DNA from: Candidatus Latescibacterota bacterium
GTDB taxonomy: Bacteria; Latescibacterota; UBA2968; UBA8231
DNA: 64,000 bases
Reading direction: 5' to 3'
Assembly: GCA_965197905.1 (NCBI GenBank)
Contig: CBDAOB010000005.1
Location: 588,176 to 652,175 of the forward strand
Of the stretch, positions 6,271 to 58,507 are shown piece by piece. The notes beneath the pieces were generated by a model, which was not told the DNA's origin, ran no database searches, and saw nothing but the letters and a program-made list of their open reading frames with translations. Position numbers and translations under genes: made by a program. The stretch's first letter is position 1, and each line of letters begins with the position of its first letter.

Positions 6271-6308
6271 GCAGAGGGGGAGCACCTGCTCCCCCTCTGC
6301 TTTTTTTG
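6271..6308 (+). terminator. Rho-independent terminator
   Basis: Perfect 14-bp stem 'GCAGAGGGGGAGCA'/'TGCTCCCCCTCTGC' with a 2-nt loop, followed by TTTTTTT, 30 nt after the stop at 6241. Confidence 0.7.
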
Positions 6309-6328
6309 TGCGCAACCCCCCCAATCTG

Positions 6329-9832: not shown

Positions 9833-9839
9833 GAATTCC

Positions 9840-24967: not shown

Positions 24968-24969
24968 GC

Positions 24970-29020: not shown

Positions 29021-29025
29021 CGCGG

Positions 29026-30972
29026 ATGGATCACTCATCCTCACGATCTGTCGAATCCTCCGCCGAATCAGGCAAAGTCGATCGCCACATCACCGCTCGC
29101 GCGATTGCCATCGGGGGAATTACGATCGCGGCGATTTTCTACGGAATCGACATAGCGGTCAAATCCCAGCTTCCTCTCATCGTTATCGGCGCCTTCATGA
29201 TGTGGCTGTTCGTCAACATACTTCTGAAGAAGCTGCTGCCGTTTCTTGCTCTCAGTCGCAGTGAGCTGCTGACCATCTTCGGAATGCTGTGGGTCGCGGG
29301 TACTATTTCGGGCAGTGGGTGGATGAGTTATTGGGCACTCATCATGGCGACCCCGGCGTATTACGACTCCGAGGAGAATCAGTGGTCGGACACGATCTTC
29401 GATTTCATGCCCTGGCATGTCTTTCCGGAGACCGATGCACGGGTCATCGACGCATTTTGGCTGGGGTTACCGGAAGGCGCCCCTATACCCTGGGACGGTT
29501 GGTTAGGTGCAGCCAGTCAGTGGTTCACGATATCCGTGGCGTTAGTCGTTTTCGGTTTCTGCATAATTCTCCTTTTCCAGCGGCAATGGGAAGAGAAGGA
29601 GCGCCTGGCGTTCCCCATCGCACAGGTCCCGGTCGAGTTGACCGCCGGTGTCGACGGTCCGCGGGCGGTGCCCGAGATGCTGCGCTCCCGTCTCTTCTGG
29701 TGCGGCTTTCTCCTGATCTTTGTTCCAATCCTCTATAGCGTCGCCACCTACTTCATCGCCGGGCTGCCCGCCCTAGAATTCTACTGGATCGCCTACGATC
29801 TGAAGATTGGTGGCTCTGTTCCCGATCTCTGGGTGCGCATCCTGCCGATGCTGATGATCATGCTCTACCTGTGTCCCCTGGATATTCTCGGGAGTTTCAT
29901 CCTGTTCTATTTCATCGCGGTCGCGAAAGGCACGGCGATGCAGCGGATCGGATTCTCGGTCGGTTCGGAGGGTCATGTGCTGGGTTGGGAGAAGATCCTG
30001 CAGATGGAAGCCTACGGCGCCCAGATCTTCGTCGCGTTGTGGTCCATATGGCTTGCACGCCGTCACCTGCGACGCATCTGGGAGCAGGCGCGAAGTGGGG
30101 AAGGTGACCCGAGTGATGTGGTGCGCTACCGGATCGCCTTCTTGGGATTGGTGCTTTCGGCCATCTATATCATCGCCTGGCAGGTGAGCATAGGAATGAA
30201 CCTGGTTCTTTCCGTCGGCATGTTCTTGTTGACAACGCTCATCTACTTCCTCATAGCCAAACTGGTTGCCGCCACCGGATTCAGCTATCTGCTGCCGCAC
30301 TGGGATCACATGAAGGGAAAGTCGTTCATCCTAGATCTAGTGGGCACAAACCACATTTCCTCACAGAGCCTGGTAGCGTTCAGCGTGGTCACCAGTCACG
30401 CCTATTTTGGCAACTTTCGCGTCTCGGCATGGCCGGCCATCCCCCATATCCTCAAAATGTTTCCGGTGCGTCGGCAACTGGGCAAGGTCGCGGCGATGGT
30501 GGCGGTGGCTTTCGCCGTTGGATTTGTGTCAGCCTGCGTTTCAGCGTTGAGCACCGGTTACGAAGGCGGCATGTTTCGCAGCGTCGGCGCCGGCGTCAGT
30601 TCTTTCGACTACACCGTGGACCTAATTCTGAATCCCCGGCTTCCCGACTTCGGCCGCTGGGGGGTCTGGTTGTTTGGGTTCTTCGAGGGGATGCTCTTGG
30701 CCATCTTGCGCGCTCGCGTCCACTGGTTCCCGCTGCACCCGATCGGCTTGGCTTTTCAGTACACGCCGTCGCCACATCGCTACTGGGCGACGTTGTTGAT
30801 CGTCTGGTGGGTAAAGTTCGCGTTGCTGCGTTATGGAGGGCCACGGGCGTATGAAACCGGGAAGCGATTCTTCTACGGTCTTGCGGTGGGTTACGTCATG
30901 GGAGCGTTGCTGTCCGACGGCGTGGACTACATCTGGTTTCCCCTCGATCCGCATATCGTCCACACCTGGTAG
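29026..30972 (+). CDS. Large polytopic membrane protein, paralog 4
   Basis: Start at ATG 29026 ('MDHSSSRSVESSAESGKVDRHITARAIAIGGITI...'). The 1047-aa ORF-track entry 27829..30972 is a read-through of an out-of-frame stretch overlapping paralog 3. It has the same motif set ('SELLTIFGMLWVAG', 'NQWSDTIFDFMPWH', 'ERLAFPIAQVPVELTAG', 'YLCPLDILGS', 'WSIWLARRHLRRIW', 'AKLVAATG', 'HWFPLHPIGLAFQ'). Confidence 0.75.
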   Translation: MDHSSSRSVESSAESGKVDRHITARAIAIGGITIAAIFYGIDIAVKSQLPLIVIGAFMMWLFVNILLKKLLPFLALSRSELLTIFGMLWVAGTISGSGWMSYWALIMATPAYYDSEENQWSDTIFDFMPWHVFPETDARVIDAFWLGLPEGAPIPWDGWLGAASQWFTISVALVVFGFCIILLFQRQWEEKERLAFPIAQVPVELTAGVDGPRAVPEMLRSRLFWCGFLLIFVPILYSVATYFIAGLPALEFYWIAYDLKIGGSVPDLWVRILPMLMIMLYLCPLDILGSFILFYFIAVAKGTAMQRIGFSVGSEGHVLGWEKILQMEAYGAQIFVALWSIWLARRHLRRIWEQARSGEGDPSDVVRYRIAFLGLVLSAIYIIAWQVSIGMNLVLSVGMFLLTTLIYFLIAKLVAATGFSYLLPHWDHMKGKSFILDLVGTNHISSQSLVAFSVVTSHAYFGNFRVSAWPAIPHILKMFPVRRQLGKVAAMVAVAFAVGFVSACVSALSTGYEGGMFRSVGAGVSSFDYTVDLILNPRLPDFGRWGVWLFGFFEGMLLAILRARVHWFPLHPIGLAFQYTPSPHRYWATLLIVWWVKFALLRYGGPRAYETGKRFFYGLAVGYVMGALLSDGVDYIWFPLDPHIVHTW

Positions 30973-35523: not shown

Positions 35524-36369
35524 TCAATAATATTTTTCCCGGCCTGTGTGTTTCTTTACCAGCTCCTTCAGCTCCGCCTTCTCCCCCATCGCGGTGAGCT
35601 CGAGAGTCTCTGGGTCCAGCTCGATGCCGTCGTTAGCCGCGTCCGCAAGAGCCTTGTCTATCTGACTATTGTAGTAGTACTGGGGCCGGTAGGCGTAGAA
35701 CATCATGGTTCGGTCCCGGTCCTTGGGAAGCCAGGGCAAGGCCGCGTGATTTAGACGCAGCGGCATGATGATCATATCCCCGGCATTCACCGGAACGTTG
35801 ATGAATCCCAGCTTGTCTCGTTCTGCGGCATCGGTGGGATAGGCATCCTTCTGATAGAACAGCTCGCGTGGGTATTCGAAGCTCGCCCTGTGGGCTCCCG
35901 GAACCACCAGGAGACCGCCGTCGCCAGGACGAACCTCGGTCAGGTAGACGAAGAAGGTCGACCAGTCGCAATAGATCCTGCGGTGGACCACATCCGTGAA
36001 GAAGCGCGGCGCGTCCTCGTGCATCTCGCTGAGAATGTCCTTGCGCAGATGGAAGTTATGGAACCCGTGGTCGGAATTCTGAACCATCATCGTGCCGTCG
36101 ACGAGGCGGGGCAAGTTGTTGGTCAGATGACAGGCGTAGTCGAGCATCTTGGGCGAGTAGGCGATACGCTCCAACACCTTGTCGTGGAGAAAAGCGTTTC
36201 GGTACTTATCACCGTAACCGTCTCCCTTGTTCCCATCTATGAGGTGCTCATGCTCGTTGACGATGCGGTCCGCGCTTTCTTGAGCCTGCGCGAGGGTCTC
36301 CGCGTCCACGACGTTCTCCACCTTCAAAAACCCGAGGGTATCGAACAGGTACAACTCTTCTTCGGTCAT
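35524..36369 (-). CDS. Phytanoyl-CoA dioxygenase (PhyH) family Fe(II)/2-oxoglutarate oxygenase
   Basis: Start at ATG 36367-36369 with SD 'AGGTGG' ('MTEEELYLFDTLGFLKVENV'). It has an HxD...H pattern ('NSDHGFHNFH', 'NHAALPW'). The upstream 73-codon extension is unsupported. Confidence 0.65.
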   Translation of the reverse strand: MTEEELYLFDTLGFLKVENVVDAETLAQAQESADRIVNEHEHLIDGNKGDGYGDKYRNAFLHDKVLERIAYSPKMLDYACHLTNNLPRLVDGTMMVQNSDHGFHNFHLRKDILSEMHEDAPRFFTDVVHRRIYCDWSTFFVYLTEVRPGDGGLLVVPGAHRASFEYPRELFYQKDAYPTDAAERDKLGFINVPVNAGDMIIMPLRLNHAALPWLPKDRDRTMMFYAYRPQYYYNSQIDKALADAANDGIELDPETLELTAMGEKAELKELVKKHTGREKYY

Positions 36370-36496
36370 TGGTCCACCTGCCTTGCGGGGAGTTGATGGT
36401 TGTTGTTGGCCGACATGCGTTCGTCCTCGAAGGTGGTCAGGATCGGTCCGGCGCACAAGTGGATCAGAGAATTTCAGTGAACGGACTGAAGCGGCA

Positions 36497-37480
36497 TCAT
36501 GGCACCTCGAGCAACACCTTTCCGAAGGTCTCGTTGCTCGCCACCAGGTCGTGAGCTTCGGCGGCACGGTCCATCGGAAGAACTGCGTCAATAATAGGCT
36601 TGATCTCTCCCTCAGCGATGAGGGGCCACACGCGCTCCCTCAACGCAGTCATGACCTCCCCTTTCCGGGCGACCGAACGCGCCCGCAAGGTCGAACCTAC
36701 CAGTTTTAGACGTTTGGCGAGGATGAGGCCGAGGTGGATGTTGGCTTCGGCTCCACCCATCAATCCGATCAATACCAGGCGGCCTTCCATACTGAGGCTC
36801 TTGAGGTTTTCTTTTAGATATTGGCCCCCTACCGGATCGAGGATTACGTCCATGCCTTTATCATCGGTCCAAGCGGCCACGCGCTCGCCAAATCGCCCCT
36901 CGTGTCGATTGCAACCCGCCTCAGCCCCAAGATCCACGCAACGGGCGATTTTTTCATCAGAGCCGGCGGTAACGAAACAAGGACTTGCGAAGGCGCGGCA
37001 GAGCTGAATAGCCGCCGTGCCCACGCCGCTTGCCCCAGCGTGCAACAACGCTCGTTCGCCCGGTTTTAACGCGGCCTCCACAAAGAGGTTCAGGTAAGCC
37101 GTGGCAAATACCTCGGGAAGAGCGGCCGCTTCAACCAGGGAAATTCCGGACGGTACGGGCACCACCTGCGCGGCCGGCACCACGGCCTTTTCGGCGTATC
37201 CACCTCCTGCAAGCAGCGCGCACACCTCATCGCCGCAGTCGAACGAGGTCACCTCTGCGCCTACGGCATCCACCACGCCGGAGCATTCCAATCCAAGGAT
37301 CTGACTGGCACCCGGTGGCGGCGGGTAGTCGCCCCGGCGTTGCAGCAGATCGGCCCGGTTTACCGCGCTGGCGCAAACGGCGATTCGAACCTCGTCCGCT
37401 GCCGGTTCGCCGATCTCACAGTCAACCCAGGAAAGCCGGTCGCCGTCTATCTGTATAGCTTTTCCTGTCGATCCTCGCAT
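36497..37480 (-). CDS. NAD(P)H:quinone oxidoreductase / zinc-independent MDR-family dehydrogenase (Qor/PIG3-like)
   Basis: 'RIAVCASAVNRADLLQRRGDYPPPPGASQILGLECSGVV' and the NAD(P) site 'LLHAGASGVGTAAIQL' are diagnostic. Confidence 0.8.
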   Translation of the reverse strand: MRGSTGKAIQIDGDRLSWVDCEIGEPAADEVRIAVCASAVNRADLLQRRGDYPPPPGASQILGLECSGVVDAVGAEVTSFDCGDEVCALLAGGGYAEKAVVPAAQVVPVPSGISLVEAAALPEVFATAYLNLFVEAALKPGERALLHAGASGVGTAAIQLCRAFASPCFVTAGSDEKIARCVDLGAEAGCNRHEGRFGERVAAWTDDKGMDVILDPVGGQYLKENLKSLSMEGRLVLIGLMGGAEANIHLGLILAKRLKLVGSTLRARSVARKGEVMTALRERVWPLIAEGEIKPIIDAVLPMDRAAEAHDLVASNETFGKVLLEVP

Positions 37481-41121: not shown

Positions 41122-41309
41122 GCTGCCGGTGTCAAGACGCCCACCTGCAGACGTGACTTTTTTTGCGACGCCGTTCTACCTGGAATCATCTAATCGAGTT
41201 AACTGCAGTATAGACCTGTCCGGCGGAAGTCGTGATCGCGAATGGAGGGAGAATCCACATCCACCACCGGACTCGAAGGTTGCCCTCATTACCCATTAAG
41301 GAGAAGAAG

Positions 41310-42104
41310 ATGAAAAAGTTGGCTTTCGTATTCGCCGTTTTGCTCGCAGTGGGCGTGGCCGGCGCTCCGGTCGCGGCCGGCACCTTCGCGACAAAGCCGG
41401 GTGATCCTGGCAATACGGTAACCTTCGAAATCTCCGCGCCGCTGGAGACCATAGTTGGCACGACTGGTGGAGCCGTCAAGGGACATTTCGACTTCGATCC
41501 GAACAACGTCAAAGCCTTGAAGAGCGGCATGTTCGTCATCAACGTCGCATCTTTTGAAACCGGCATTGACCTGCGCGATGAGCACTTTCGCGACAACTTC
41601 CTGCATACAGCCAAATATCCCAACGCTACGTTCACCTTGGGCAAGGTAACGAAAACGTCGGCGAAGTCGGTAAAGACCGGCGCGTCCGTGGACCTGGAGC
41701 TGGAAGGCACCCTGGACATGCATGGGGTCCAACGTAGCGAGACCGTCGCCGCCACCGTCACCTATATGGATGACGGCATGGTCCCCGACAACGTGCTGCC
41801 CGGAAACGTAATCGCCGTTAAGGCGAACCTTCGGGTCGCCTTGGCTGACTACAAGATCGAGCGCCCGGAAATGCTGGTGCTCAAGGTCGGCGAGGTGGTC
41901 GACATCGACGTCATTCTGAGAATGACCGACTCCCCTAAAACGGTGAATGCCTGCGGTGGTTGCGGGGATTGTGGCGGATGTGGGGATTGTGGCGGATGTG
42001 GGGATTGTGGTGGATGTGGTGATGGCGGTGGCTGCGGCGGCAGTTGCGGTGGTGGTTGTGGTGGTGGCTGTGGAGGCGGTTGTGGCGGTAGCTGCGGAGG
42101 CTGA
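41310..42104 (+). CDS. YceI-like (polyisoprenoid-binding) periplasmic protein with C-terminal Cys/Gly repeat tail
   Basis: ATG 41310 with SD 'AAGGAG' (spacing 6). Signal peptide 'MKKLAFVFAVLLAVGVAGAPVAA'. 'FETGIDLRDEHFRDNFLHTAKYPNATF' is the YceI signature. The C-terminus is 'CGGCGDCGGCGDCGGCGDCGGCGDGGGCGGSCGGGCGGGCGGGCGGSCGG'. Confidence 0.7.
   Translation: MKKLAFVFAVLLAVGVAGAPVAAGTFATKPGDPGNTVTFEISAPLETIVGTTGGAVKGHFDFDPNNVKALKSGMFVINVASFETGIDLRDEHFRDNFLHTAKYPNATFTLGKVTKTSAKSVKTGASVDLELEGTLDMHGVQRSETVAATVTYMDDGMVPDNVLPGNVIAVKANLRVALADYKIERPEMLVLKVGEVVDIDVILRMTDSPKTVNACGGCGDCGGCGDCGGCGDCGGCGDGGGCGGSCGGGCGGGCGGGCGGSCGG
41941..42101 (+). repeat. Intragenic tandem repeat (18-nt unit 'TGTGGGGATTGTGGCGGA' x3.5, then degenerate GGTGGTTGT/GGCTGCGGC units) encoding the Cys-Gly tail
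   Basis: Direct reading: 'tgtggggattgtggcggatgtggggattgtggcggatgtggggattgtggtggatgtggtgat...ggtggttgtggtggtggctgtggaggcggttgtggcggtagctgcgga'. Confidence 0.8.
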
Positions 42105-42130
42105 CCAACCTTTTCAGTATCAACAACAAA

Positions 42131-42166
42131 GCCCCGCGGATTCCTGCAATCTGCGGGGCTTTTTCA
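42131..42166 (+). terminator. Rho-independent terminator
   Basis: Stem 'CCCCGCGGATT'/'AATCTGCGGGG' (1 mismatch) with loop CCTGC, followed by CTTTTT, 27 nt after the stop at 42104. Confidence 0.65.
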
Positions 42167-42197: not shown

Positions 42198-43300
42198 TCA
42201 CATCTTCTCGTCCAGAGATCTCTCGCTTTGCATGTGCTTCAATGAGGGTATTACCCGCTTCAGCTCCGCCACGTAGTCCGTTTTCGATACATCTGTTCGT
42301 GACTTAGCGGCGCGCGCGAAGCGAATAAATTCGTCCGTGGCAGCTGTGTCGACGCCGTTGACCGATTGTTCCACCACCCCAACACAACGAAAACGATTCA
42401 GGTCCAAGCTATCTCCCTCGCTGTAGAACTCCTCGAACGGCTTCTCGCCCGAGGTGTCACTGGAGGTGAACAGGCAAGGCCACCTGTTCTGTGGTAGCAA
42501 TTTGTCGATGGATGCCCTGGCCTCGTCCTCAGTCCGGCACTCGAACGCCTCGTACCCCAACATACTTAGAAGCTCGAGTGCGATCTCGGGGAAGGTTTTT
42601 TCTTTCAGCACTTCCAATTTCGGAAAAAAACATCGCCGTTCTCGCCCAGTATGCTTGACAGCAAACAGAGATGTCCAGCCTCCTCGTGGGAGATGAAATA
42701 TCGCCGAACATCCTTGGGAGCCGCGAGTGGTTGCCTCTTTTGCAGGCGTTGGAGAAGACCGAAGGGCAGGCTGCCATTGGAGAACGCGACATTGGCGAAT
42801 CGCGCAGAGGAGTAGTGCTGAACGTCCGCGTGTGAAAGCAAGACCCTCTCCATAACCATCTTTGTGGCGCCCATAAGGCTGCCGGGATTGACCGCTTTAT
42901 CCGAGGACACCGAAAAGAAATTGCGGCATGGTCTTGGCAGGTTGTGCACAAAGTCATTCAAGAACAGGACATTCGTATCCACCATACGCATCAGGGAATA
43001 GACATCCTTTTCCGAACGCACATGTTTCAAGGCGGACAGATTCAGAATAAAGTCGAACGGCTCCTGGTCAGAGAAATAGCGCGCGAACTCGGTACTGCCA
43101 AGTCCAATGGGCAATTCTACCAGTTCATCAGGTGGCCGAATATCCGGCGATGAACGGAGTTCTCGAACCACCTCCACCAGACCATTTTCGTTCAAGTCGA
43201 ACAACGCCATGGTCTTCGGTGAAAACTCCAGAATAGCCCGAACGGTTGAAAAGCCGATCGATCCGGCGGCGCCAACAACAGCGATCCGGCTACCATTTAG
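42198..43300 (-). pseudogene. Decayed capD/pglF/FlaA1-like UDP-sugar 4,6-dehydratase gene (no start codon, internal frameshift)
   Basis: Minus-strand reading gives 'RIAVVGAAGSIGFSTVRAILEFSPKTMALFDL...' (Rossmann GxGxxG), 'FFSVSSDKAVNPGSLMGATKMV' and 'SSARFANVAFSNGSLPFGLL' (CapD catalytic motifs). The frame breaks at an A7/T7 run (42623-42629) and resumes as '..LKEKTFPEIALELLSML...SGEKPFEEF' (CapD C-terminal signature 'GxRPGEKLxEEL'). No ATG/GTG/TTG lies between the upstream in-frame stop and the Rossmann motif. Further PglF-linker-like remnants in another frame lie at ~43330-43440. Confidence 0.55.
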
Positions 43301-43501: not shown

Positions 43502-45181
43502 CTACTTCCGATTCGCAGCCAGGCCCGCGCGCGCGCGGAGCACGACGGGGAGTTCCGAATCGGCTAATCGCCAGGTGGCAAGCGCTTGTTCGTAGGCCTG
43601 TGCGGCCGCTTCGGTCTGGTTTCCCATTTCGTAAGTCTTGGCCAATCCCAGCAACATGTGCCCGCTTCGGGGCCGTTTGGCGAGCGCTTTCTGAAAGGCG
43701 TCGCGGGCTGTGCGCCAATCGCCGGCTCTGAGCGCAACCTCACCGTGGCTTTCGTGCAGAGAGCGGGCAAATTCAGGCGGCTCCTCGTATGGCAGCGCGG
43801 CAGAACTGGAAATGGCTCTTGCGATACGTTCGTATGCCTCATCGTGCTCACCCCTGACGCTGTGTATCTGTGCCTGAAGCTGGTCGGCGAGGATTTCGAG
43901 GTAGTCGACCCGCCGCCGCCGGTGGTAGCGGTCCCTCCGGGGCGGCTCCTCCACGAGATACATCCAGGTTAGATTGGTCAGCTTGGCCAGCTCACTTATG
44001 GCCAGATCCACATCGTCTGTGGCCAGCGCGCTCATTCCCCGGGTGTAGGCCAACTGGCCGTTGGCGAACAGGCCGCCAAAGTTGGCGCTTAAGGTGTCGT
44101 TGGCCGCCAGTTTGGCTAGGGCAGCGGATGCCAGTTTCCATTCGCGGTAGCGAATGTGCAACCGCACCCGCGCCATACGTCCCTGGTAATAGATGATCGT
44201 GCGCCGACTGCTCAGCGCTACCTCTTCAAGCTTGCGCGCCCACCGTAGGCCCTCCCGGTAGCGTCCGTCTTCGGCGCAGTTGGCTACCAGGTAGCTGAGG
44301 TTGTGCACATAGTTCCAGTTGTTGTACGCCGGCGTACCGTACTCGGCCATGTAGGTGGAATCCACCGCGAACGCTTCGACGAATGAAGCCCTGGCACCGG
44401 CATAGTCGCCGCTCAAATAGCGGATATGACCGGGCATGTGAACGACGTGTGCGTTGGCAGGCGCGAGGGCTGCTATCTTCTCAGCACTCTCGTGGGCCGC
44501 TCCGGGATTGTCCCCGCGTTCCTCGATATGAATGTAATAGTGGTGAACCCCGAGATGGTCGGGGCGTGTCTTCAACAACGGTTTGATGAGCGCCAGGGGA
44601 TCGGGCTCGCCTTTTCGCGGATGACCGGGATAATAACCCCGCATAAGGAAGCGGATGAGAAAAATCTTGGCTTCGACGTCTTCGGGGTACGCGGCGATAA
44701 GGCTCTGCATCTCTTGGATGTAGGCCTGGCGGCCGATGGAATCGAGCAGCACGGTCGCCCGCAGATATCGTTGCTCACGGTCTGTAACATCGGGGATCAA
44801 GCTCTTGAACTTGCGAAAGGCGGTCCTATTCTCCGACCTCCTTCCACGCGGCGTTTGATAGATGCCCCACCAGGCTACAGCACATGAGGAATCGAGACGG
44901 GTTGCCGTGCGAAACGACCTCATGGCTTCGTAGTACCAGAACCCGTGCAGGAGGGCAAATCCCTGGTTTACATAACGTTGTGCCTCCGGCGACATCGTGG
45001 TAGCGGGAAACGAGGCGGTGCTGATGCCGGTCAATAACGCCGGATAATCCGAAGGCTGTGGCGGGGTACTACAGGAAAGAAGGCAGAGGAGTAGGCCGAA
45101 GAGAATCAAGGGTGGCGCCGCCGCATGGCGCGTTGGGGCACGGATATCGTAGTTCAATACACCTTTTGGTCGACATCTCAT
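43502..45181 (-). CDS. TPR-like helical-repeat lipoprotein
   Basis: 559 aa. The N-terminal 'LILFGLLLCLLSCSTP' is a lipobox-like signal. The body is rich in Y/A/L with repeated helical hairpins. Confidence 0.55.
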   Translation of the reverse strand: MRCRPKGVLNYDIRAPTRHAAAPPLILFGLLLCLLSCSTPPQPSDYPALLTGISTASFPATTMSPEAQRYVNQGFALLHGFWYYEAMRSFRTATRLDSSCAVAWWGIYQTPRGRRSENRTAFRKFKSLIPDVTDREQRYLRATVLLDSIGRQAYIQEMQSLIAAYPEDVEAKIFLIRFLMRGYYPGHPRKGEPDPLALIKPLLKTRPDHLGVHHYYIHIEERGDNPGAAHESAEKIAALAPANAHVVHMPGHIRYLSGDYAGARASFVEAFAVDSTYMAEYGTPAYNNWNYVHNLSYLVANCAEDGRYREGLRWARKLEEVALSSRRTIIYYQGRMARVRLHIRYREWKLASAALAKLAANDTLSANFGGLFANGQLAYTRGMSALATDDVDLAISELAKLTNLTWMYLVEEPPRRDRYHRRRRVDYLEILADQLQAQIHSVRGEHDEAYERIARAISSSAALPYEEPPEFARSLHESHGEVALRAGDWRTARDAFQKALAKRPRSGHMLLGLAKTYEMGNQTEAAAQAYEQALATWRLADSELPVVLRARAGLAANRK

Positions 45182-45224: not shown

Positions 45225-46184
45225 TCACGTGCTTTTCGGAACCGTAACCTGCGTAAACTCGAATTTGGGACCCTTCGTGTAGGTTGCTCCCAAACCCAGG
45301 CCCCAATCTGCCTTACCCCCGGCCAACCGCCCCTCCGCCCAGGCTTTCAACGGTAGGTTATCCCAGTTGTCCGTGAACCAGTACTGGGAAGACGGTCCTC
45401 CCAGAGGGTCCTTACCCAGGGGATTCGAAAGGTCGCCCATCGCCCCCAACAGCTGGCGCCGGATGGGCGAGCTTCGGGCGATCAGATTCGGATCCTGTTC
45501 GATGTGACCGCTGGGGCGTATCCATCTGGGACCATAGCTAATGTAGAGTGCCTTGCGGAAGCCTCCGGAGAGATTCGGGGTCACCCCGTGGAGCAGCGTT
45601 GGCCGCCACAGCAGGGCGCTTCCGGCCGGCACTCGCAATTCGAAGATCTCTTTGGGATCGAGCCAGGATTCCCAGGTGGCTCGTTGCTCCCGGTTCCATC
45701 GAAAACTGCCGGGTACCAGCAAAATGGTGCTGTGTCCCTCTGCTGTGTGGTCGGATAGGTACCATCCGACCTTGAAGTCTAGCAACGGCATAACGCCGTC
45801 CACGGTGGTCCCGGCGAACTCCTCTTCGTAGTCGAAGTGCCAGCCCAGCGACATCATTTCGGGATCTGCGCCGATCGGAAGCGGGGCTTTGTAATCGAAG
45901 ACGCTGTCGCGGTTCTGTATGTTCCAGCCGAGGATATCCACCAACATGGGCAAGATAGCTGGGTGGTCGATGAGATCGAGAATGTGTTCATGCCGCGAGA
46001 TGCCATTGCGCAGGGATACGGAATCGTCCGGGGACAGACCCCGCAGCGCCCGGGTCTGCTCCGCGACCTCGTCCATGGCTCGTGAAACCCGGTCAACGGA
46101 GTCGTTGTCCAGGGCATTCTCGACTACGGTGAATCCCTGGCCGTTGAGCTCATCTTTTTGTCCCTCGGTTATGGCAATCGGCAT
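45225..46184 (-). CDS. PhyH-family Fe(II)/2OG dioxygenase
   Basis: Start ATG 46182-46184 with SD 'GAGGGG' ('MPIAITEGQKDELNGQGFTVVENAL', the canonical PhyH N-terminus). 'WHFDYEEEF' is the HxD motif. The 95-codon upstream extension in the ORF track would overlap the next gene. Confidence 0.6.
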   Translation of the reverse strand: MPIAITEGQKDELNGQGFTVVENALDNDSVDRVSRAMDEVAEQTRALRGLSPDDSVSLRNGISRHEHILDLIDHPAILPMLVDILGWNIQNRDSVFDYKAPLPIGADPEMMSLGWHFDYEEEFAGTTVDGVMPLLDFKVGWYLSDHTAEGHSTILLVPGSFRWNREQRATWESWLDPKEIFELRVPAGSALLWRPTLLHGVTPNLSGGFRKALYISYGPRWIRPSGHIEQDPNLIARSSPIRRQLLGAMGDLSNPLGKDPLGGPSSQYWFTDNWDNLPLKAWAEGRLAGGKADWGLGLGATYTKGPKFEFTQVTVPKST

Positions 46185-46287
46185 CTGGACACGCCCCTCT
46201 GCTAGTGCGGTGTCAAGGTTGAAGCCCCACTCGTTTTCATCCGTCGTGCTGTAGGCATTGCGTTCTTCCGCGTACCGTGGGCGGTTG

Positions 46288-47202
46288 TCAACGCGCGTAG
46301 TCGTCGGGGTTGTTCTTGCGCCAATTCGGAAGATAACCCTCCGTCTCGCCGAATCCGTAGGATGGTCCGATTTGATTCGTAGACGTCCACGGCCAGGCTT
46401 GACCGCCCATGAGCCGATATTGGTTTCCTTTGCCGCACAGCCAGTAAAACATGTGGGCGACGTAGCGGGCATCTCCGTGGCCGCCGTAATGGGCGGATCC
46501 AGAATCGAACGCTACTTCCCGCACCCAGTCCCCGACCGGCGGCGTTGTTCGCCAGTAATTGTATTTCAGCATATGGCGAAGCCCATTCGCGGTCGACTTC
46601 CCGCGTCGGTGCAGGATGCTTTGGGAATGGATCCCGAAGGAACCGGCCGGTCCCTCGGCGAGGACGCCGGCCGCGTCTTCCGCCATGGTCGTGGGGCGGA
46701 TGTGAGATCCTGGTACAAACTCGGTTGGACCCAGCTCTGCCGGCGTATCCTGAGGAAAATAAAAAACCTCCAGGAAGTTGGTCTCCGGACCGAACACGTG
46801 GTCGGCATCGTGGTGCCATCCCTGCGCTGGTTTTGGGCACTCCATTGGATGGCTGCTAACGAGCACCGGCAGCCCGAGGTCCTTCCCCAGCAACGACCGC
46901 AGGGCGCCGGTCAGCCGGGGGTTGAGCACGACGTTCTCGTGGAACCAATCCTCTAGTAGAATCGTGCTCGGCTCGTGAGATGCGCGGATCCGCTCGAGGT
47001 CCGCGGATGTCATGCCTTTGGGAACGAACCTCGGATTCGCCGGCATAACGCCGTTGAGATACTCGAGCGTCATTTTGTTGAATTCATTGGGCACGACACC
47101 CTCGAGCAGGAGAAAACCTGTGCGACAGAACTCCAACACTTGGCTGTCGGTCAGGGTAGGATCGCAATCGAAGGTTTGTCGTGTCTCGTCGTGGTTCGCC
47201 AA
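46288..47202 (-). CDS. PhyH-family Fe(II)/2OG dioxygenase
   Basis: 'LTDSQVLEFCRTGFLLLEGVVP' is the PhyH N-terminus. 'WHHDADHVF' is the HxD motif, with a C-terminal His. Confidence 0.7.
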   Translation of the reverse strand: MANHDETRQTFDCDPTLTDSQVLEFCRTGFLLLEGVVPNEFNKMTLEYLNGVMPANPRFVPKGMTSADLERIRASHEPSTILLEDWFHENVVLNPRLTGALRSLLGKDLGLPVLVSSHPMECPKPAQGWHHDADHVFGPETNFLEVFYFPQDTPAELGPTEFVPGSHIRPTTMAEDAAGVLAEGPAGSFGIHSQSILHRRGKSTANGLRHMLKYNYWRTTPPVGDWVREVAFDSGSAHYGGHGDARYVAHMFYWLCGKGNQYRLMGGQAWPWTSTNQIGPSYGFGETEGYLPNWRKNNPDDYAR

Positions 47203-47410: not shown

Positions 47411-49092
47411 TTACTCGTACACCACGCTTACGCCGCGATGGCGCAGTGCGCCGATCTGGAAGGTTGCTGCCAGGACCGAGAGCGGGTTCCCAGCCAAGGT
47501 GATCACGGTTTCCTCGCCAATAGCCAGGTTCTCAACCAGAGGGGTAAGATCGGATATTTCGTTCGAGGACAGGAGTAACCGACGGAGATTCTGCGAGCCC
47601 GCCAGCGGCCCAAGATCACTGATCTGATTTGAAGAGACATTCAATTCTTCCAGGTTCGTCAACCTGCAACGAAGGCGATGTCGTCGATGCCGTTGTGGCT
47701 GAGTTGCAGGTGGGTCAGCGCCTTGTTGGCCAGGGATGGGACACCGCTGATCTGGTTGTTGTTGGCAACTAGGCTTTCCAGCTTTGGGAGGTTTCCGAGG
47801 GTGGACAGGTCGGAGATCTGATTCAGCGAAATTCTGAGCTCGCGCAGATTGACGAGGCTGCCCAGCGGTCCCAGATCCTCGATCCTGTTGCGATCCAACA
47901 AAAGTACTTCGAGGTCTGCCAGGGTACCCAACGCGGAGATATCGACGAGGCGATTCTGGCTGAGGACCAATCTCTTCAATCGGGATAAACCGGAAAGCGG
48001 CTCCAAGCTGCCAAGCGGATTGTGGGCGAGTCCGAGCTCACGAAGATTGATCAGACCGGACAGGGCGGAAAGGTCGACGATTCCGTTGAAGTCGAGTGTC
48101 AGAAACTCGAGCTGAACCAAAGCGGCCAGCGGAGTGATATCGACGATCTGATTCGTGCCCAGCGACAGAACCCGCAGATTGCGCAGACCAGCCAGCGGGG
48201 TCAGGTCGGTAATTCGATTCAAACTGACTCGCAATTCCTCCAGACGGGTAAGTTTCTCGATGCCACCAAGGCTGGTGACAATGCTGTTGATTTGCTGGAG
48301 CGCCCTGACTCCGGCTACATCCGTCAGGGTGATCTCCCCCTCCGATATCTGGCTGGCGCGCCGAAGCGATGAGAATAGGAAGGGGTCGTCGAAAACGAGC
48401 GGATCGCGAATGCGCATCACCTCGAAGTTCAGCGGAGCCCGCCGGTCGATCTCCTGTCCTTGAAGAGCCAGCGTTTCGATGTCGAATCCGGAGATGATCA
48501 CAGAGAACAAATCGGGGTGCGCCTGGGCTGGAATCGCAGTCTTTGCGGGTCGAGCTGAAAGGATGGTGCTGGGGCCGTCTATCAAGGTCATCTTTCGCGT
48601 TTGGGAAGAAGAGCCCGCCTTCAGACGGTAGAAGTAGACCCCCGCCGCGACTCCGAAACCGTTTCGGTCCCGCCCGTGCCAGGGTATCTGGTATTGGCCC
48701 GCAGGGCGTTCGTCATCGAGCAGGATTTGCACCGGATGCCCGAGGCTGTTGTAGACCGCTAAACGCACATGGGATGGGCGGTCGAGCCGGAAGGAAATGA
48801 GGGTGCTGGGATTGAAGGGATTTGGATAGTTCGGCGACAGGCGGAACCCCTGGGGAACGCCTGAGTCGCGCTCGAAAATCGAAGTGGGAATATCGACGGC
48901 GATGACATAGGCCCCAAAGGTATCGGTGGTATCCGACACGAAACTGTTCCCCGTCGCTTCGTTGGTCAGCTCCACCATGGCACCGGAGACGGCAACACCC
49001 TGGCCGTCGGTAACCTGTCCCGAAAGGTTAAGTGCGCTGGCGGTTTGCACTGCGAGCAGAACGGCGATCGTCAGCGCAACAATCAGTCGCAA
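47411..49092 (-). CDS. Secreted leucine-rich-repeat (internalin-like) protein with N-terminal CarboxypepD_reg-like and internal T9SS-CTD/FlgD-Ig-like domain; 1-nt frameshift near 47660
   Basis: Signal peptide 'MRLIVALTIAVLLAVQTASA'. 'SGQVTDGQGVAVSGAMVEL' is CarbopepD_reg-like. The internal 'NYPNPFNPSTLISFRL...VYNSLGHPV...GVYFYRL' is a T9SS-CTD-like domain. It is followed by >12 22-residue LRRs ('LxxLxxLxLxxNxIxDLxPLxx'). The repeat register continues exactly across the junction 'SHNGIDDIAFVAG|LTNLEELNVSSNQISDL', and GGTTG versus the expected GGTTTG gives a -1 indel. Confidence 0.6.
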
Positions 49093-50862: not shown

Positions 50863-52818
50863 TTACTCCTGTAGCCAAACCTCGCGATTATTCCTCTCGG
50901 CGAAGATCCGTTCGAAAATGTCGTCGCGCAAGCCACCTTCCGGCGAGATCAGCACTTGCTTCAGGTCTTCGGTTCGATGTTGAGATCGCTCCCATATCGC
51001 CTTCGCCTGGCGGGATTTGACGGCCAGGATTTCAGGCGTCGCGATATAGTCGTATTCGAAGTCTTCGAATTGCGAAAAGGTGGCAAGGGAGCGATAAGCG
51101 ACCAATCGGACTGCCGCGTAAGGGTCATTCAATAACGTGGCCAGATAGGGAGGGATCCACTCCCCTCCGGCCACTTTGCGCGCCGCTTCCCAGCCCAGGC
51201 TCCAGCCCATGAGCACCCGTTGTCCCGCATCCCCCCGCAACGTCCACAACACCGACGCAGCAAAGCTGCGCTCGTCTTCACTTAGGACCGGCCGCGGTAT
51301 GTCGTACCACTCCTTCAGGTACTCAGACGTCCACGACAGGGTCTTGTCCAGGTGGCACTGGTTACAGGCGTTGGGGCGCCCCGTTTCAACACTGGCGATT
51401 ACACTCGGTGAATCCACCTGGTGACTACGGATTGCCCCCATGAGACCGTAGGTGGTGTGGGGCATGTGGCAGTTGTAGCACAGGCTGCCGCTGGAGCCGG
51501 GTTGGTGACGGGTGTGCTGGACGAGGGTGTCGCCGACAGCCGGGTGACACTGCAGGCAAGCGTCGTTGGTCTCCATTTCCTGCTCCAACTGCTCGTCGGC
51601 CCACGTTCGCATCGACCGCGGGTCGTCGGCGTCTTGATGCATCCGGTGGCAGGAGAGGCACGTCATCGTACGCTCCGCGTCGTCGTGTTGAAAGCAAGGG
51701 CTCTCGATCAAGGCGTTGTATTCGCGTCCGGTGACCCGAATCATGCCGTCCGACCAGAACAGTGTGCTCATGTAGCCGGGATTCTTGTGGAGGAAGTCGT
51801 TGACGGCCGGGTGGTCAACACCGTTGCCAAAATGTTGTCGCGTTATCGCCAGCTCATCGCCGGGCCGATAGCGATTACCAAACTTGGTCCAAGCCCACAT
51901 CTCCTCTGGCCGGTTTACCGTCATCAGCACCCCGTGGCACTGACCGCACACTTCTGCGGAACGTTTTGGCGGCAGATGCTGCGGATGAGTCGTCGTGGCA
52001 TCTCTGCCGCCGAAGAGATGCAGCATATATCGTCGCCACGGCTTCTGATTTTCCCGCACATGGTCCTCCCCCGGACCGTGACACGACTCGCAGGCGATGC
52101 CGAACTCGCCTACCTGTGTGTCCATTTCGCCGCTCGGGTCAAACCGCGCCCGCGGATGGGTTGCGTGGCATTTGATGCAGGAGGTGTTCCAAACCGCCGG
52201 CGACCACTTTCGCTCGGGGGGTACCACGTAGGAGGCATTGACCGGGACCCAGCGATCTTCGTGAATGAGGTAGAGGACTGGCAACTGAACCACCCTTCGA
52301 TCATCCCCCACGGCCATCCAGAATACCTGCATGTGATGGGAGCCGGTGGTCATGACGATCTTGCGTCGGATCGGCTTTTGCCCCGATCCGGCCGGAGGAT
52401 CAAGAGCAATCCAAAGATCCTCGCCGTCACGCTCTAAGCGCAGCGTTTCGCCGCCAATCTCGACCGTACCAGACCAACGTGGCGCCACGCTCTCGGGGCT
52501 CGCCACCTGGGTCATGGTCCGGTGGTAGGATGAGTGCCAGGTGTCGTACTCCTGCGGGTGGCATGATCTGCAAGCGTCGGAGGAGATGTAGCCGGCGTCC
52601 GCGACCTGGGTGGGACGATCGGTGGTTGAAAGCGGTAGCACGACTTCGTCAAGCCGACCGGCCACAGCCCACCCGGCACCAGCGGGTAGAACCAAGAGTA
52701 GGGCCGGCGCGCCGGCGCGAAGCCAGCGGGAATCGGCTCGCCATGCACGCAAGGCCAGCGGAGCGAATGCCAGCGCAACTAGGGCTGCTGCAGCGATCGT
52801 TTCAAGGTTGGTTATCAT
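50863..52818 (-). CDS. Membrane-anchored octaheme c-type cytochrome with C-terminal helical (HEAT-like) domain
   Basis: Start at ATG 52816-52818 ('MITNLETIAAAALVALAFAPLAL' TM anchor). It has eight CxxCH motifs: CRSCH, CIKCH, CESCH, CGQCH, CLSCH, CLQCH, CYNCH, CNQCH. Confidence 0.8.
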   Translation of the reverse strand: MITNLETIAAAALVALAFAPLALRAWRADSRWLRAGAPALLLVLPAGAGWAVAGRLDEVVLPLSTTDRPTQVADAGYISSDACRSCHPQEYDTWHSSYHRTMTQVASPESVAPRWSGTVEIGGETLRLERDGEDLWIALDPPAGSGQKPIRRKIVMTTGSHHMQVFWMAVGDDRRVVQLPVLYLIHEDRWVPVNASYVVPPERKWSPAVWNTSCIKCHATHPRARFDPSGEMDTQVGEFGIACESCHGPGEDHVRENQKPWRRYMLHLFGGRDATTTHPQHLPPKRSAEVCGQCHGVLMTVNRPEEMWAWTKFGNRYRPGDELAITRQHFGNGVDHPAVNDFLHKNPGYMSTLFWSDGMIRVTGREYNALIESPCFQHDDAERTMTCLSCHRMHQDADDPRSMRTWADEQLEQEMETNDACLQCHPAVGDTLVQHTRHQPGSSGSLCYNCHMPHTTYGLMGAIRSHQVDSPSVIASVETGRPNACNQCHLDKTLSWTSEYLKEWYDIPRPVLSEDERSFAASVLWTLRGDAGQRVLMGWSLGWEAARKVAGGEWIPPYLATLLNDPYAAVRLVAYRSLATFSQFEDFEYDYIATPEILAVKSRQAKAIWERSQHRTEDLKQVLISPEGGLRDDIFERIFAERNNREVWLQE

Positions 52819-54452: not shown

Positions 54453-54498
54453 CGAACCCTCAAACGACGCTGGCGCGCAGGCGGCGGGAAAAGAACAG

Positions 54499-58109: not shown

Positions 58110-58132
58110 GATGCGCTCCCTTCGCGGATACC

Positions 58133-58507
58133 GTGATCGCCGGCGCCAATGAGGCAAAGTATGAGGAATTTCGATTCCAGGTCAACCGAAACGCAACCTT
58201 AGAGCGGGAAATGCTGGAAGCGCTAGCCCAACACCCGAATTTGACCATCAAGCTGCCCGGATTCGGTGAGATCTGCGAGTTGCCCTATCCCTTTCAGGAA
58301 GTGCCCGAGGCGGTCCGTGATTCGCTGGAGGCATTTGGACCGGAGCGCGTTATGTGGGGCAGCGATTTTCCGCCGGTCAGCACCCGAGAAGGGTATCATC
58401 ACTCGCTGGATTTTCCGCTGCAGTATCTCGCCGATCTCAGCGAACAAGACCGCGAGTGGATATTTGGCGGCGCGGCGCTAAAGGTGTGGGGCTTTCGAGG
58501 GGAGTGA
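58133..58507 (+). pseudogene. N-terminally truncated amidohydrolase-2 remnant (C-terminal ~120 aa only)
   Basis: 'RVMWGSDFPP' and 'DREWIFGGAALKVW' are the C-terminal strand motifs of amidohydrolase-2. Upstream on this strand is antisense to the PhyH gene, so the N-terminal two-thirds is absent. Confidence 0.45.

What the first reader, a model, noticed from the sequence alone, without database searches (positions are those of the whole stretch)
41310..42104. YceI-like lipid-binding protein with a C-terminal Cys-Gly repeat tail generated by a tandem DNA repeat
The secreted YceI-like domain (signature 'FETGIDLRDEHFRDNFLHTAKYPNATF') is followed by ~55 residues of pure C/G/D/S repeats: four copies of CGGCGD followed by CGG(G/S)CGG units. 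These are encoded by 3.5 copies of an 18-nt unit plus degenerate 9-nt units. Such low-complexity Cys-Gly tails could bind metals or form disulfide-crosslinked anchors, and repeat-number variation would change tail length. I know of no characterised YceI protein with this extension.
Basis: seen in the sequence. Interest (0 to 1): 0.6.

Follow-up and report, generated by a model that had tools for sequence, protein, structure and literature searches.

The report
Lipid-binding protein with variable cysteine tail
A secreted lipid-binding (YceI) protein of an uncultured marine Latescibacterota bacterium ends in a floppy cysteine-glycine tail whose length changes between strains; the tail is real and conserved but undescribed, and what it does is not shown: I read it as a built-in thiol arm, and metal binding is nearly as likely.

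Summary
ORF 41310..42104 (+) encodes a 264-aa YceI-fold protein with a Sec-type signal peptide. Its last 50 residues contain only C, G, D and S (14 Cys) and are encoded by a tandem repeat.

It is not an assembly artefact. Most of the 24 close homologues (49-91% identity, Latescibacterota MAGs) carry a Cys-rich tail built from different repeat units. Strains with identical YceI domains differ only by in-frame gains or losses of whole units. All cysteines are in the tail, none in the barrel. No Pfam or NCBIfam model matches the tail, and it has no hydrophobic segment, so it is not a known sorting signal.

New findings:
- The commonest unit is one CxxC pair plus a short spacer.
- 18 of 24 close homologues end in C-G-x.
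- Relatives in the same YceI subfamily carry a dihaem cytochrome c domain, or NPC-type Cys repeats, instead of the CG tail.
- A periplasmic TPR lipoprotein with six invariant histidines is a conserved convergent neighbour.
- No cytochrome b561 partner lies nearby.

Best reading (inferred, about 35%): a redox or scavenging multi-thiol arm serving the barrel's hydrophobic ligand. A metallothionein-like metal-binding tail is nearly as likely. This is a new variant of a known family, of moderate interest.

The parts
41298..41303 (+). Shine-Dalgarno-like AAGGAG, 6 nt upstream of the ATG
   Evidence: Read directly from the sequence.
41310..42104 (+). Complete CDS of the YceI protein with its Cys-Gly tail (264 aa plus stop)
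   Evidence: ORF list and sequence. Homologues start at the same MKK/MR position.
41310..41378 (+). Sec-type signal peptide, residues 1-23 (MKK, hydrophobic core, V-A-A|G); no lipobox cysteine
   Evidence: Judged by inspection of the sequence. All homologues have the same basic/hydrophobic/small-x-small pattern just before the conserved F-E/A-T. No signal-peptide predictor was available.
41415..41912 (+). YceI-like lipocalin-type beta-barrel domain (Pfam residues 36-201; AlphaFold2 strands span residues 24-206); contains no cysteine
   Evidence: Pfam PF04264, E=2.7e-22. AlphaFold2 barrel with pLDDT 60-91. Foldseek best match 1y0g (E. coli YceI), TM 0.81, followed by TT1927b, HP1286, PA0423, X158 and BcnA/B.
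41931..41951 (+). Short linker SPKTVNA between the conserved R(L/M)TD end of the barrel and the first cysteine
   Evidence: Alignment A4 and tail table.
41952..42023 (+). Tail, first half: four 18-nt units, each encoding CGGCGD (one CxxC pair plus a GD spacer)
   Evidence: Tandem Repeats Finder, 18-nt period, 88-95% identity. Codon table.
42024..42101 (+). Tail, second half: GGGCGGSCGGGCGGGCGGGCGGSCGG, made of degenerate 12-nt units (CGGG/CGGS); ends C-G-G-COOH
   Evidence: Tandem Repeats Finder, 12/24/36-nt periods at 74-78% identity. Differences between units are synonymous third-position changes.
42131..42164 (+). Intrinsic-terminator-like GC-rich hairpin followed by a T-run; the gene looks monocistronic
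   Evidence: Sequence. The terminator scan found the inner stem at 42142-42158 plus CTTTTT. The element is conserved in L001 and L006.
43502..45181 (-). Conserved convergent neighbour: a 559-aa TPR-solenoid lipoprotein (lipobox LLSC) with invariant H214, H218, H245, H248, H252 and H293 (motifs HHYxIH and HMPGH). Candidate partner; the link is inferred from synteny only.
   Evidence: Orthologues sit next to the YceI gene in the window, L001/L006, L002/L009, L003, L005/L007, L138 and L139. Invariant histidines across 72 sequences. AlphaFold2 pLDDT 93, all-alpha.

Best explanation
The gene encodes an exported YceI-type lipocalin barrel that holds a hydrophobic ligand; in characterised relatives this is a quinone, a polyisoprenoid or another lipid. 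A disordered, glycine-spaced, multi-cysteine arm has been added to its C-terminus.

I propose that the cysteines are the working part. They form a string of CxxC dithiol/disulfide pairs, ending in a C-G-x carboxy-terminus, on a flexible leash. These supply or accept reducing equivalents, or covalently trap lipid-derived radicals and electrophiles, for whatever sits in or near the barrel. This is the role that a cytochrome b561 (LcoA) or a fused cytochrome c plays for other YceI proteins. Capacity scales with the number of units. Slipped-strand gain and loss of whole units changes that number between strains without harming the protein.

Shown: the fold, the disordered tail, cysteines confined to the tail, conservation of tail composition across lineages, strain-level length variation, and the gene neighbourhood. 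Export is read from a Sec-type signal peptide by inspection only.

Inferred: everything about chemistry, namely redox or scavenging activity, the identity of the ligand, and any partnership with the His6-TPR lipoprotein.
For: 1. Fold and disorder. YceI fold. Tail pLDDT is about 35, i.e. disordered.

2. Cysteine placement. There are 14 Cys in the 50-aa tail and none in the barrel, and the same holds in nearly all homologues.

3. The tail is selected as protein, not only as DNA. Different lineages use different units (CGGCGD, CGAGGCG[GS], CGGGK, CDGGCGG, AACNPCGG) but keep Cys plus small or turn-forming residues. Differences between units in the window are synonymous. Every length difference seen is in frame.

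4. CxxC is the commonest design. An i to i+3 spacing accounts for 108 of 229 Cys-Cys intervals, and 18 of 24 close homologues end in C-G-x.

5. Literature. BcnA (a YceI lipocalin) and the cytochrome b561 LcoA act together against lipid peroxyl radicals. The authors note that a free-cysteine mechanism like that of alpha-1-microglobulin is excluded for BcnA homologues because they lack cysteines (PMC9113575). This clade does have cysteines, and it has no cytochrome b561 within +-8-10 kb in five loci or anywhere in the 51 ORFs annotated here or via the syntenic L001 locus.

6. In the same YceI subfamily the C-terminal position is filled by a dihaem cytochrome c in P0143, P0147 and P0156, an electron-transfer module.

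7. Thiol-redox flavour in the neighbourhood. DUF3179 lipoproteins carrying FCPLT sit next to the gene in one subclade; this family is listed among selenoproteins with a UxxC/T motif (PMC9312934). The conserved TPR-His neighbour family is fused to an AhpC/TSA redoxin with a CLHC motif in P0284 and P0298.
Against: - Nothing here measures chemistry.
- The periplasm and seawater are oxidising, and no DsbD/CcdA/TlpA-type reductase lies next to the gene in the window.
- Cysteine counts are often odd (7, 9, 17), and some units are not CxxC (CGGGK, PANPCGDK).
- Close relatives with one cysteine (GGCGD, GACGE) or none exist, so the long tail is dispensable.
- The tail's composition (24-28% Cys, with G/K/D/S/N/P and no aromatic residues) is equally typical of metallothioneins.
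- The six invariant histidines of the neighbour could point to metal handling.
- The TPR neighbour family also occurs away from any YceI gene in other phyla, so the pairing may be lineage synteny only.
Confidence: 0.35

Rival explanations
1. Metallothionein/phytochelatin-like metal-binding tail. The cysteines form thiolate clusters with soft metals (Cu(I), Zn, Cd, Hg, Co/Ni) in the periplasm or outside the cell, for buffering, detoxification or scavenging. Metal may be handed to or received from the neighbouring His6-TPR lipoprotein.
For: - Composition: about 24-28% Cys with G, K, D, S, N and P, and almost no aromatic or hydrophobic residues. Some tails read like metallothionein (e.g. ...GKCKAGKCSGDKCGGC...).
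- CxxC is also a classic metal-binding motif.
- This function tolerates length variation.
- The conserved neighbour has six invariant histidines on alternate helices of a solenoid.
- AhpC/TSA-type (TlpA-like) redoxins fused to that family would also fit keeping metal-binding cysteines reduced. This last point rests on my background knowledge.
Against: - No metallothionein Pfam or NCBIfam hit.
- No metal-resistance or metal-transport genes in the window or in five related loci.
- It does not explain why Cys-rich repeats arose repeatedly on this YceI subfamily specifically and on nothing else in about 300 kb of these genomes.
- Single-Cys relatives cannot form clusters.
- Lys-rich tails are less favourable for binding cations.
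Confidence: 0.28
2. Disulfide tether. The tail forms intermolecular disulfides that cross-link the lipocalin to itself or to envelope or surface proteins. It would act as an anchor or matrix-forming element rather than a catalytic or binding one.
For: - Exported cysteines are normally oxidised (background knowledge).
- The tail is a flexible, exposed C-terminal leash.
- Odd cysteine counts leave unpaired thiols available for intermolecular bonds.
- Length is unconstrained.
Against: - The dominant CxxC spacing favours local intramolecular loops.
- No other Cys-rich envelope protein was seen in about 300 kb of related DNA.
- Characterised YceI proteins are soluble.
- It does not explain the cytochrome c fusions at the same position.
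Confidence: 0.12
3. SoxY-like covalent carrier arm. The cysteine at position -3 of a Gly-rich C-terminus carries a substrate as a persulfide, polysulfide or thioether (for example sulfane sulfur, or a hydrophobic sulfur species held by the barrel). The extra repeats add loading sites.
For: - 18 of 24 close homologues end in C-G-x, 11 of them in CGG. P0002 and P0011 end exactly GGCGG. Even the single-Cys relatives keep GGCGD or GACGE.
- SoxY carries its sulfur substrate on the Cys of a C-terminal GGCGG (PMC6067878).
- Some source MAGs come from oxygen-minimum water (Saanich Inlet bin).
Against: - No SoxY domain, and a Sec-type rather than twin-arginine signal peptide.
- No sox, dsr or sulfur-transferase genes in the window or related loci.
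- More distant relatives carry Cys repeats at the N-terminus or end in non-Cys residues.
- Many cysteines are unnecessary for a single carrier site.
Confidence: 0.1
4. Functionally neutral low-complexity expansion. A slippage-prone GC-rich minisatellite at the 3' end of the gene is tolerated because it does no harm.
For: - Rapid length change between near-identical strains.
- Relatives with one cysteine or none.
- No downstream domain that a change in the tail could damage.
Against: - Cysteine-rich composition is kept across lineages that use unrelated DNA units of 15, 18, 21 and 24 nt.
- It arose again as NPC-type and CGDAKKG-type repeats in more distant members.
- Variation between units is synonymous.
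- Among the more than 40 tails I read, the frame is never lost, although a frameshift would cost nothing else.
- The alternative reading frames would give Ala/Val-rich or Arg/Trp-rich tails, and these are never observed.
Confidence: 0.1

Closest known systems
YceI / BcnA bacterial lipocalins (Pfam PF04264): E. coli YceI 1y0g, T. thermophilus TT1927b 1wub, B. cenocepacia BcnA 5ixh, P. aeruginosa PA0423 7bwl
   Same: Same fold and family. Has a Sec-type signal peptide, so probably exported like them. Presumably binds a hydrophobic ligand such as a quinone or polyisoprenoid.
   Different: The characterised members have no cysteines and no C-terminal extension. They are typically paired with a cytochrome b561 gene, which is absent here. 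The NCBIfam E. coli YceI equivalog scores 46 bits against a cutoff of 232, so this is not an orthologue. It belongs to a distinct subfamily with APLE(T)IVG and LADYxIERP motifs.
Alpha-1-microglobulin (mammalian lipocalin with a free cysteine on a flexible loop that acts as reductase and radical scavenger)
   Same: A lipocalin-type barrel combined with reactive thiol(s) on a flexible element. Naguib et al. name this mechanism as impossible for ordinary BcnA because it lacks cysteine.
   Different: There is no sequence relationship. Here there are up to 17 cysteines on a repeat tail rather than one loop cysteine. Activity is untested.
Metallothioneins / phytochelatins (and the Cys/His-rich C-terminal tail of E. 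coli SlyD)
   Same: About 25-30% Cys in a low-complexity, aromatic-free, disordered peptide. CxxC, CxC and CC spacings. The function tolerates length change.
   Different: No homology to the bacterial metallothionein family SmtA/BmtA (no Pfam hit). It is exported rather than cytoplasmic. It is appended to a lipid-binding barrel. It is Gly-dominated and encoded by a variable-number tandem repeat.
SoxY sulfur-carrier protein (C-terminal GGCGG swinging arm)
   Same: A Gly-flanked cysteine at position -3 of a flexible C-terminus in a periplasmic protein.
   Different: Different fold (YceI barrel, not the SoxY Ig-like domain). No SoxZ or sox genes nearby. Many cysteines instead of one. A Sec rather than Tat signal peptide.
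YceI fused to cytochrome c (P0143, P0147, P0156) and S. degradans Cbp2D/E X158 domains (2x32/2x34)
   Same: A YceI barrel joined to a redox module in a secreted protein. The cytochrome fusions belong to the same subfamily retrieved by the domain profile.
   Different: In those proteins the appended module is a folded haem domain. Here it is an unfolded cysteine repeat.

Membership tests
YceI-like domain family (PF04264) | Sequence match to the family model above the gathering threshold | tested here: met
   80.2 bits against a cutoff of 23.7, E=2.7e-22, residues 36-201.
YceI-like domain family (PF04264) | Eight-stranded lipocalin-like beta-barrel fold | tested here: met
   AlphaFold2 model. 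Foldseek matches 1y0g, 1wub, 3hpe, 7bwl and 5ixh at E of about 1e-10 to 1e-12, with TM up to 0.82 normalised to the target.
YceI-like domain family (PF04264) | Binds a polyisoprenoid, quinone or other lipid in the barrel | not testable with these tools
   Needs native mass spectrometry or crystallography of the expressed protein.
E. coli YceI orthologue group (NCBIfam NF002994 equivalog) | Score above the equivalog cutoff | tested here: not met
   46.2 bits against a cutoff of 232.
BcnA-LcoA lipocalin / cytochrome b561 system | Adjacent cytochrome b561 (lcoA / yceJ) gene | tested here: not met
   No b561 family among the called genes within +-8-10 kb in five loci. None among the 51 window ORFs, annotated here or via the syntenic L001 locus.
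BcnA-LcoA lipocalin / cytochrome b561 system | Cysteine-free lipocalin | tested here: not met
   14 Cys in the tail. The literature states that BcnA homologues lack cysteines.
SoxY sulfur carrier | SoxY domain, with a SoxZ partner and sox gene context | tested here: not met
   Pfam finds only YceI. No sox genes in the window or related loci.
SoxY sulfur carrier | C-terminal GGCGG with the cysteine at position -3 | tested here: inconclusive
   The window protein ends GGSCGG, so the cysteine is at -3. P0002 and P0011 end GGCGG. 18 of 24 close homologues end C-G-x, but more distant relatives do not.
Bacterial metallothionein (SmtA/BmtA) | Homology to the metallothionein family model | tested here: not met
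   No Pfam or NCBIfam hit at E<=1 other than YceI.
Bacterial metallothionein (SmtA/BmtA) | Metal-thiolate cluster formation | not testable with these tools
   The composition is compatible. Metal analysis is required.
C-terminal sorting/anchoring signals (PEP-CTERM, GlyGly-CTERM, MYXO-CTERM, LPXTG, T9SS CTD) | Signature motif followed by a hydrophobic helix and basic residues, or a folded beta-sandwich CTD, recognised by NCBIfam/Pfam models | tested here: not met
   The tail contains only C, G, D and S, with no hydrophobic stretch. No model hit. T9SS-type CTDs do occur on other proteins of the window and look entirely different.
Cys-rich RiPP precursors (e.g. SCIFF/ranthipeptides) | Short precursor next to a radical-SAM or other maturase | tested here: not met
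   This is a 264-aa folded protein. No radical-SAM or other maturase gene in any of the neighbourhoods.

The most novel reading that the evidence does not exclude
Latescibacterota carry a previously unrecognised periplasmic thiol system. It would consist of a lipocalin whose hypervariable CxxC-repeat arm is the redox- or metal-active element, working with a dedicated His6-TPR lipoprotein that recognises or recycles the C-G-x tail, and in one subclade with a DUF3179 CxxT lipoprotein. This would be a cytochrome-independent alternative to the BcnA-LcoA envelope antioxidant pathway, with a capacity tuned by tandem-repeat copy number.
Probability: 0.2. Interest if true: 0.7.

Novelty: new variant of a known kind. 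Interest (0 to 1): 0.5.

Why it matters
YceI/BcnA lipocalins are widespread and their mechanism is unresolved. The published model needs an external electron partner and explicitly rules out thiol chemistry because the known members have no cysteine.

This clade attaches up to 17 cysteines to the same barrel, loses the cytochrome b561 neighbour, and gains a conserved His-rich TPR lipoprotein neighbour. That makes it a natural experiment on what the barrel needs from a partner.

It is also a clear case of a protein-coding tandem repeat whose copy number varies between co-occurring strains of an uncultured marine phylum. The tail (or the NPC-type variants) could be of practical use as a genetically encoded, exportable thiol or metal-binding tag. 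If the tail turns out to be only a metal sponge or neutral, the finding is a curiosity.

Tried and rejected
1. Searching the 5.8-billion-protein set with the tail peptide alone found nothing. 6,851 candidates shared words, but none scored. HMMER's composition correction removes such low-complexity queries, so I could not survey whether other domains carry this tail.

2. I scanned metagenome contigs for the DNA pattern (TGY GGN NNN)x5. Almost all were microsatellite DNA read in a non-coding frame, or eukaryotic sequence, and none was a YceI gene. This was a dead end. Only a few unrelated secreted proteins with Cys-rich low complexity turned up (L055, L092, L125).

3. Literature searches for YceI plus cysteine-rich tails, Latescibacteria plus YceI, and periplasmic Cys-rich tails found no description of this feature.

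5. Readings I considered and rejected:
- Assembly artefact: rejected because the tail is conserved and seen in long-read and complete assemblies.
- Sorting signal: rejected because there is no hydrophobic segment and no model hit.
- Collagen-like Gly-X-Y: rejected because the period is not constant.
- Haem attachment: rejected because there is no CxxCH motif.
- RiPP precursor: rejected because there is no maturase.
- Phase-variable on/off switch: rejected because every length change seen is in frame.
- The 64-aa His-rich ORF on the opposite strand (41935..42129): a by-product of the repeat.
Full report
**1. What is there**

The + strand ORF 41310..42104 starts at an ATG six bases after an AAGGAG and encodes 264 residues.
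- Residues 1-23 look like a Sec signal peptide: MKK, a hydrophobic core, then V-A-A|G, with no lipobox cysteine. This is by inspection, since no predictor was available.
- Residues 36-201 match Pfam YceI (PF04264) at E=2.7e-22, 80 bits against a threshold of 23.7.
- An AlphaFold2 model built on 24 homologues gives a beta-barrel with pLDDT 60-91 over residues 24-206.
- Foldseek places it on E. coli YceI 1y0g (target-normalised TM 0.81), TT1927b, HP1286, PA0423, the S. degradans X158 domain and BcnA/BcnB.
- The NCBIfam equivalog for E. coli YceI is far below its cutoff (46 bits against 232). The protein is therefore a member of the family but not an orthologue of the E. coli protein.

After a seven-residue linker (SPKTVNA), the last 50 residues are CGGCGD x4 followed by GGGCGGSCGGGCGGGCGGGCGGSCGG.
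- That is 14 Cys, 30 Gly, 4 Asp and 2 Ser.
- The model shows this stretch as disordered, with pLDDT about 35.
- Tandem Repeats Finder reports an 18-nt unit with 4.3 copies at 88% identity (3.3 copies at 95%) over 41955-42031. Degenerate 12/24/36-nt periods then run to 42101.
- A GC-rich hairpin with a T-run follows at about 42131-42164, so the gene looks monocistronic.

**2. It is real, conserved and hypervariable**

A search of 5.8 billion proteins returned 24 homologues at 49-91% identity.
- Most of them carry a Cys-rich C-terminal tail, while the YceI domain has no cysteine.
- The tails use different units in different lineages: CGGCGD and CGGG here, CGAGGCG[GS], CGGGK, CDGGCGG, AACNPCGG and SCGGSEG.
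- What is kept is composition, not sequence or period. Pooled over 33 tails the composition is G 38%, C 24%, then K, P, A, D, N and S. Aromatic and aliphatic residues are almost absent.

Genome records name the organisms as Candidatus Latescibacterota, with some MAGs labelled Gemmatimonadota.
- The closest is a 6.7-Mb chromosome, OZ244235.1, at 91% identity.

Length changes by whole units between near-identical strains:
- L001 and L006 are 100% identical in the flanks and differ only by a 48-nt in-frame block inside the repeat.
- The window differs from L001 by in-frame blocks of 81 and 12 nt.
- Within one 90%-identity cluster the same domain carries 1 to 7 copies of an 8-residue unit, giving lengths of 222, 230, 246, 254, 262 and 270 aa. 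These always end in CGE, and several alleles are seen on 6-14 independent contigs.
- Two other clusters vary in steps of 7 residues, or by 5 and then 23.
- The two single-cysteine clusters (ending GGCGD and GACGE) are length-invariant.
- Short-read collapse could contribute to some alleles. However, several come from long-read or complete assemblies.

Within the window's tail, all four Gly codons and both Cys codons are used. The differences between units in the older second half are synonymous third-position changes.

The reading frame is kept in every allele I read, although a frameshift would damage nothing downstream. Together these points argue for selection on the Cys/Gly peptide, not just a slippery DNA tract.

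**3. How far the feature extends**

I searched 1.84 billion cluster representatives with a profile of the YceI domain only, without tails.
- The whole CG-tailed clade collapses into one 50% representative.
- Among the next 149 more distant relatives, ten have Cys-rich C-terminal repeats. They are of other kinds: (NPC)n, CGD-type and CGDAKKG-type.
- P0032 and the Poribacteria locus L012 have NPC repeats at both ends of the barrel.
- P0087 is a lipoprotein with ten PANPCGDK units at the N-terminus.
- Three members (P0143, P0147, P0156) carry a dihaem cytochrome c domain at the C-terminus instead.
- Calditrichota-type relatives at 41-43% identity have no tail.
- Cysteine repeats have therefore been added to this YceI subfamily several times. 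They are not tied strictly to the C-terminus in distant members.

Within the close clade the end is stereotyped: 18 of 24 end in C-G-x, 11 of them in CGG.

The commonest Cys-Cys spacing is i to i+3, accounting for 108 of 229 intervals. Many units amount to one CxxC plus a 2-4-residue spacer: CGGC-GD, CG[GS]C-GAGG, CGGC-DGG and CNPC-GGAA.

**4. Neighbourhood**

The upstream gene differs from locus to locus.

The downstream convergent gene is conserved. It encodes a 510-583-aa protein with a lipobox (LLSC, IISC or LLGC).
- It lies next to the YceI gene in the window (43502..45181 on the minus strand, separated by one split polysaccharide-synthesis gene).
- It is also adjacent in L001/L006, L002/L009, L003, L005/L007, L138 and L139.
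- These orthologues share down to about 43% identity with the window protein.
- In L004 a homologue is on the same contig but not adjacent.

AlphaFold2 gives this neighbour a confident all-alpha TPR-like solenoid, pLDDT 93.
- Across 72 family members, down to 22% identity, H214, H218, H245, H248, H252 and H293 are invariant, forming the motifs HHYxIH and HMPGH.
- These histidines lie on alternate helices, so by TPR geometry they should face one groove. This is an inference.
- Structure and sequence searches return only generic TPR proteins.

More distant members of this family, in Acidobacteria and other phyla, are not next to a YceI gene.
- Two of them (P0284, P0298) are fused to an AhpC/TSA-type redoxin with a CLHC motif.

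In one subclade a DUF3179 lipoprotein with an FCPLT motif lies directly upstream of the YceI gene: L005/L007, L008 and L138. In L004 it is 3.4 kb away.
- DUF3179 is listed among prokaryotic selenoprotein families with a UxxC/T motif (PMC9312934).

No cytochrome b561 is found within +-8-10 kb in five loci, nor among the window's 51 ORFs.
- These were annotated directly, or via the syntenic L001 locus.
- There are no sox genes, metal-resistance genes or RiPP maturases either.

**5. Mechanism**

The chemistry is inferred, not shown. What the data require is many thiols on a flexible, soluble leash attached to a lipid-binding barrel, with copy number free to vary.

I favour a redox or scavenger arm (about 0.35).
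- The published model for YceI/BcnA proteins is protection of the envelope against lipid peroxyl radicals, together with the cytochrome b561 LcoA. A bound quinone is the possible redox mediator.
- The same paper notes that the free-cysteine mechanism of the lipocalin alpha-1-microglobulin is excluded for BcnA because it has no cysteine (PMC9113575).
- This clade has the cysteines and lacks the b561 neighbour.
- Its subfamily puts cytochrome c at the same position in other members.
- Its neighbours have a thiol-redox flavour.

A metallothionein-like metal-binding tail is almost as likely (about 0.28).
- The composition is classic for it.
- CxxC also binds soft metals.
- The neighbour's six histidines could form a metal site.

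The other readings:
- Disulfide tethering, about 0.12.
- A SoxY-like covalent carrier, about 0.10. This was suggested by the C-G-G end, since SoxY carries sulfur on the Cys of a C-terminal GGCGG (PMC6067878). There is no sulfur-metabolism context here.
- Neutral expansion, about 0.10.

TPR domains often bind C-terminal peptides. The conserved neighbour could therefore recognise the C-G-x end, but that is speculation.

**6. Comparison and novelty**

The protein is a member of the YceI family but not of the E. coli YceI orthologue group, and not of the BcnA-LcoA arrangement.
- The tail matches no Pfam or NCBIfam model.
- It has none of the features of known C-terminal sorting signals.
- My literature searches found no description of it.

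It is best classed as a new variant of a known kind: a known barrel with an undescribed, repeat-encoded, hypervariable cysteine arm and a conserved, uncharacterised neighbour. Interest is moderate (0.5).

Noticed in passing
window 43502..45181 (-), and alignment A6: The conserved convergent neighbour belongs to an uncharacterised TPR-solenoid lipoprotein family with six invariant histidines (H214, H218, H245, H248, H252, H293; motifs HHYxIH and HMPGH) across 72 sequences from several phyla. Two distant members (P0284, P0298) are fused to an AhpC/TSA redoxin and one (P0278) to an alpha/beta hydrolase. It looks like an unrecognised metal- or ligand-binding family.
   Followed up: partly
L005 6526..7890; L138 7447..8790; L008; L004 3305..4606: A DUF3179 lipoprotein with an FCPLTGTG motif (CxxT) sits directly upstream of the YceI gene in one subclade. 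DUF3179 is listed as a selenoprotein family with a UxxC/T motif. It is absent from the window.
   Followed up: partly
window 42198..43210 (-): The Polysacc_synt_2 gene between the YceI gene and the TPR gene is split into two overlapping ORFs (139 and 201 aa). Its orthologue in L001 is one 403-aa gene. This is a frameshift, either a pseudogene or a sequencing error.
   Followed up: partly
P0143, P0147, P0156: YceI domains fused to a C-terminal dihaem cytochrome c (two CxxCH motifs). P0059 and P0063 are tandem double-YceI proteins.
   Followed up: partly
P0032, P0087, P0030, P0027, P0044; L012 ~9821..10633: (NPC)n and PANPCGDK cysteine repeats flank YceI barrels at the N- and/or C-terminus in more distant relatives, including a Poribacteria MAG. 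A similar (NPCAAK)n region precedes an unrelated domain in L055 6551..7456.
   Followed up: partly
L092 3..470 (+) and L125 2..739 (-): Two related secreted proteins share a conserved EEEISDVSLATFYVFDKE segment followed by a CGGC/CRGC-rich core. No Pfam or NCBIfam hit for L125. They could be a Cys-rich peptide precursor family.
   Followed up: no
window 50863..52854 (-) and 52815..54755 (-): A 663-aa multihaem cytochrome c (weak MtrC/MtrF-like, c7 and c554 hits) lies next to a gamma-glutamyltranspeptidase, about 9-12 kb downstream of the YceI gene.
   Followed up: no
window 6308..8332, 24793..26916, 27829..30972 (+): Three paralogues of the DUF6785/DUF6784 family of unknown function lie in one 64-kb window.
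   Followed up: no
window 35524..36591, 45225..46472, 46288..47202, 57489..58157 (all -): There are at least four PhyH (phytanoyl-CoA dioxygenase) paralogues, plus several GFO/IDH/MocA and amidohydrolase genes. This points to a catabolic island of unknown substrate.
   Followed up: no
window 47411..49092 (-): A leucine-rich-repeat protein appears split into two ORFs (477 and 83 aa). A T9SS-type sorting domain occurs on another protein at 4346..6241 (+).
   Followed up: no
P0005 (191 aa): A 91%-identical homologue whose C-terminal third is replaced by an Arg/Ala-rich sequence. This is most likely a frameshift inside the barrel-coding region from an assembly error, not a natural variant.
   Followed up: no
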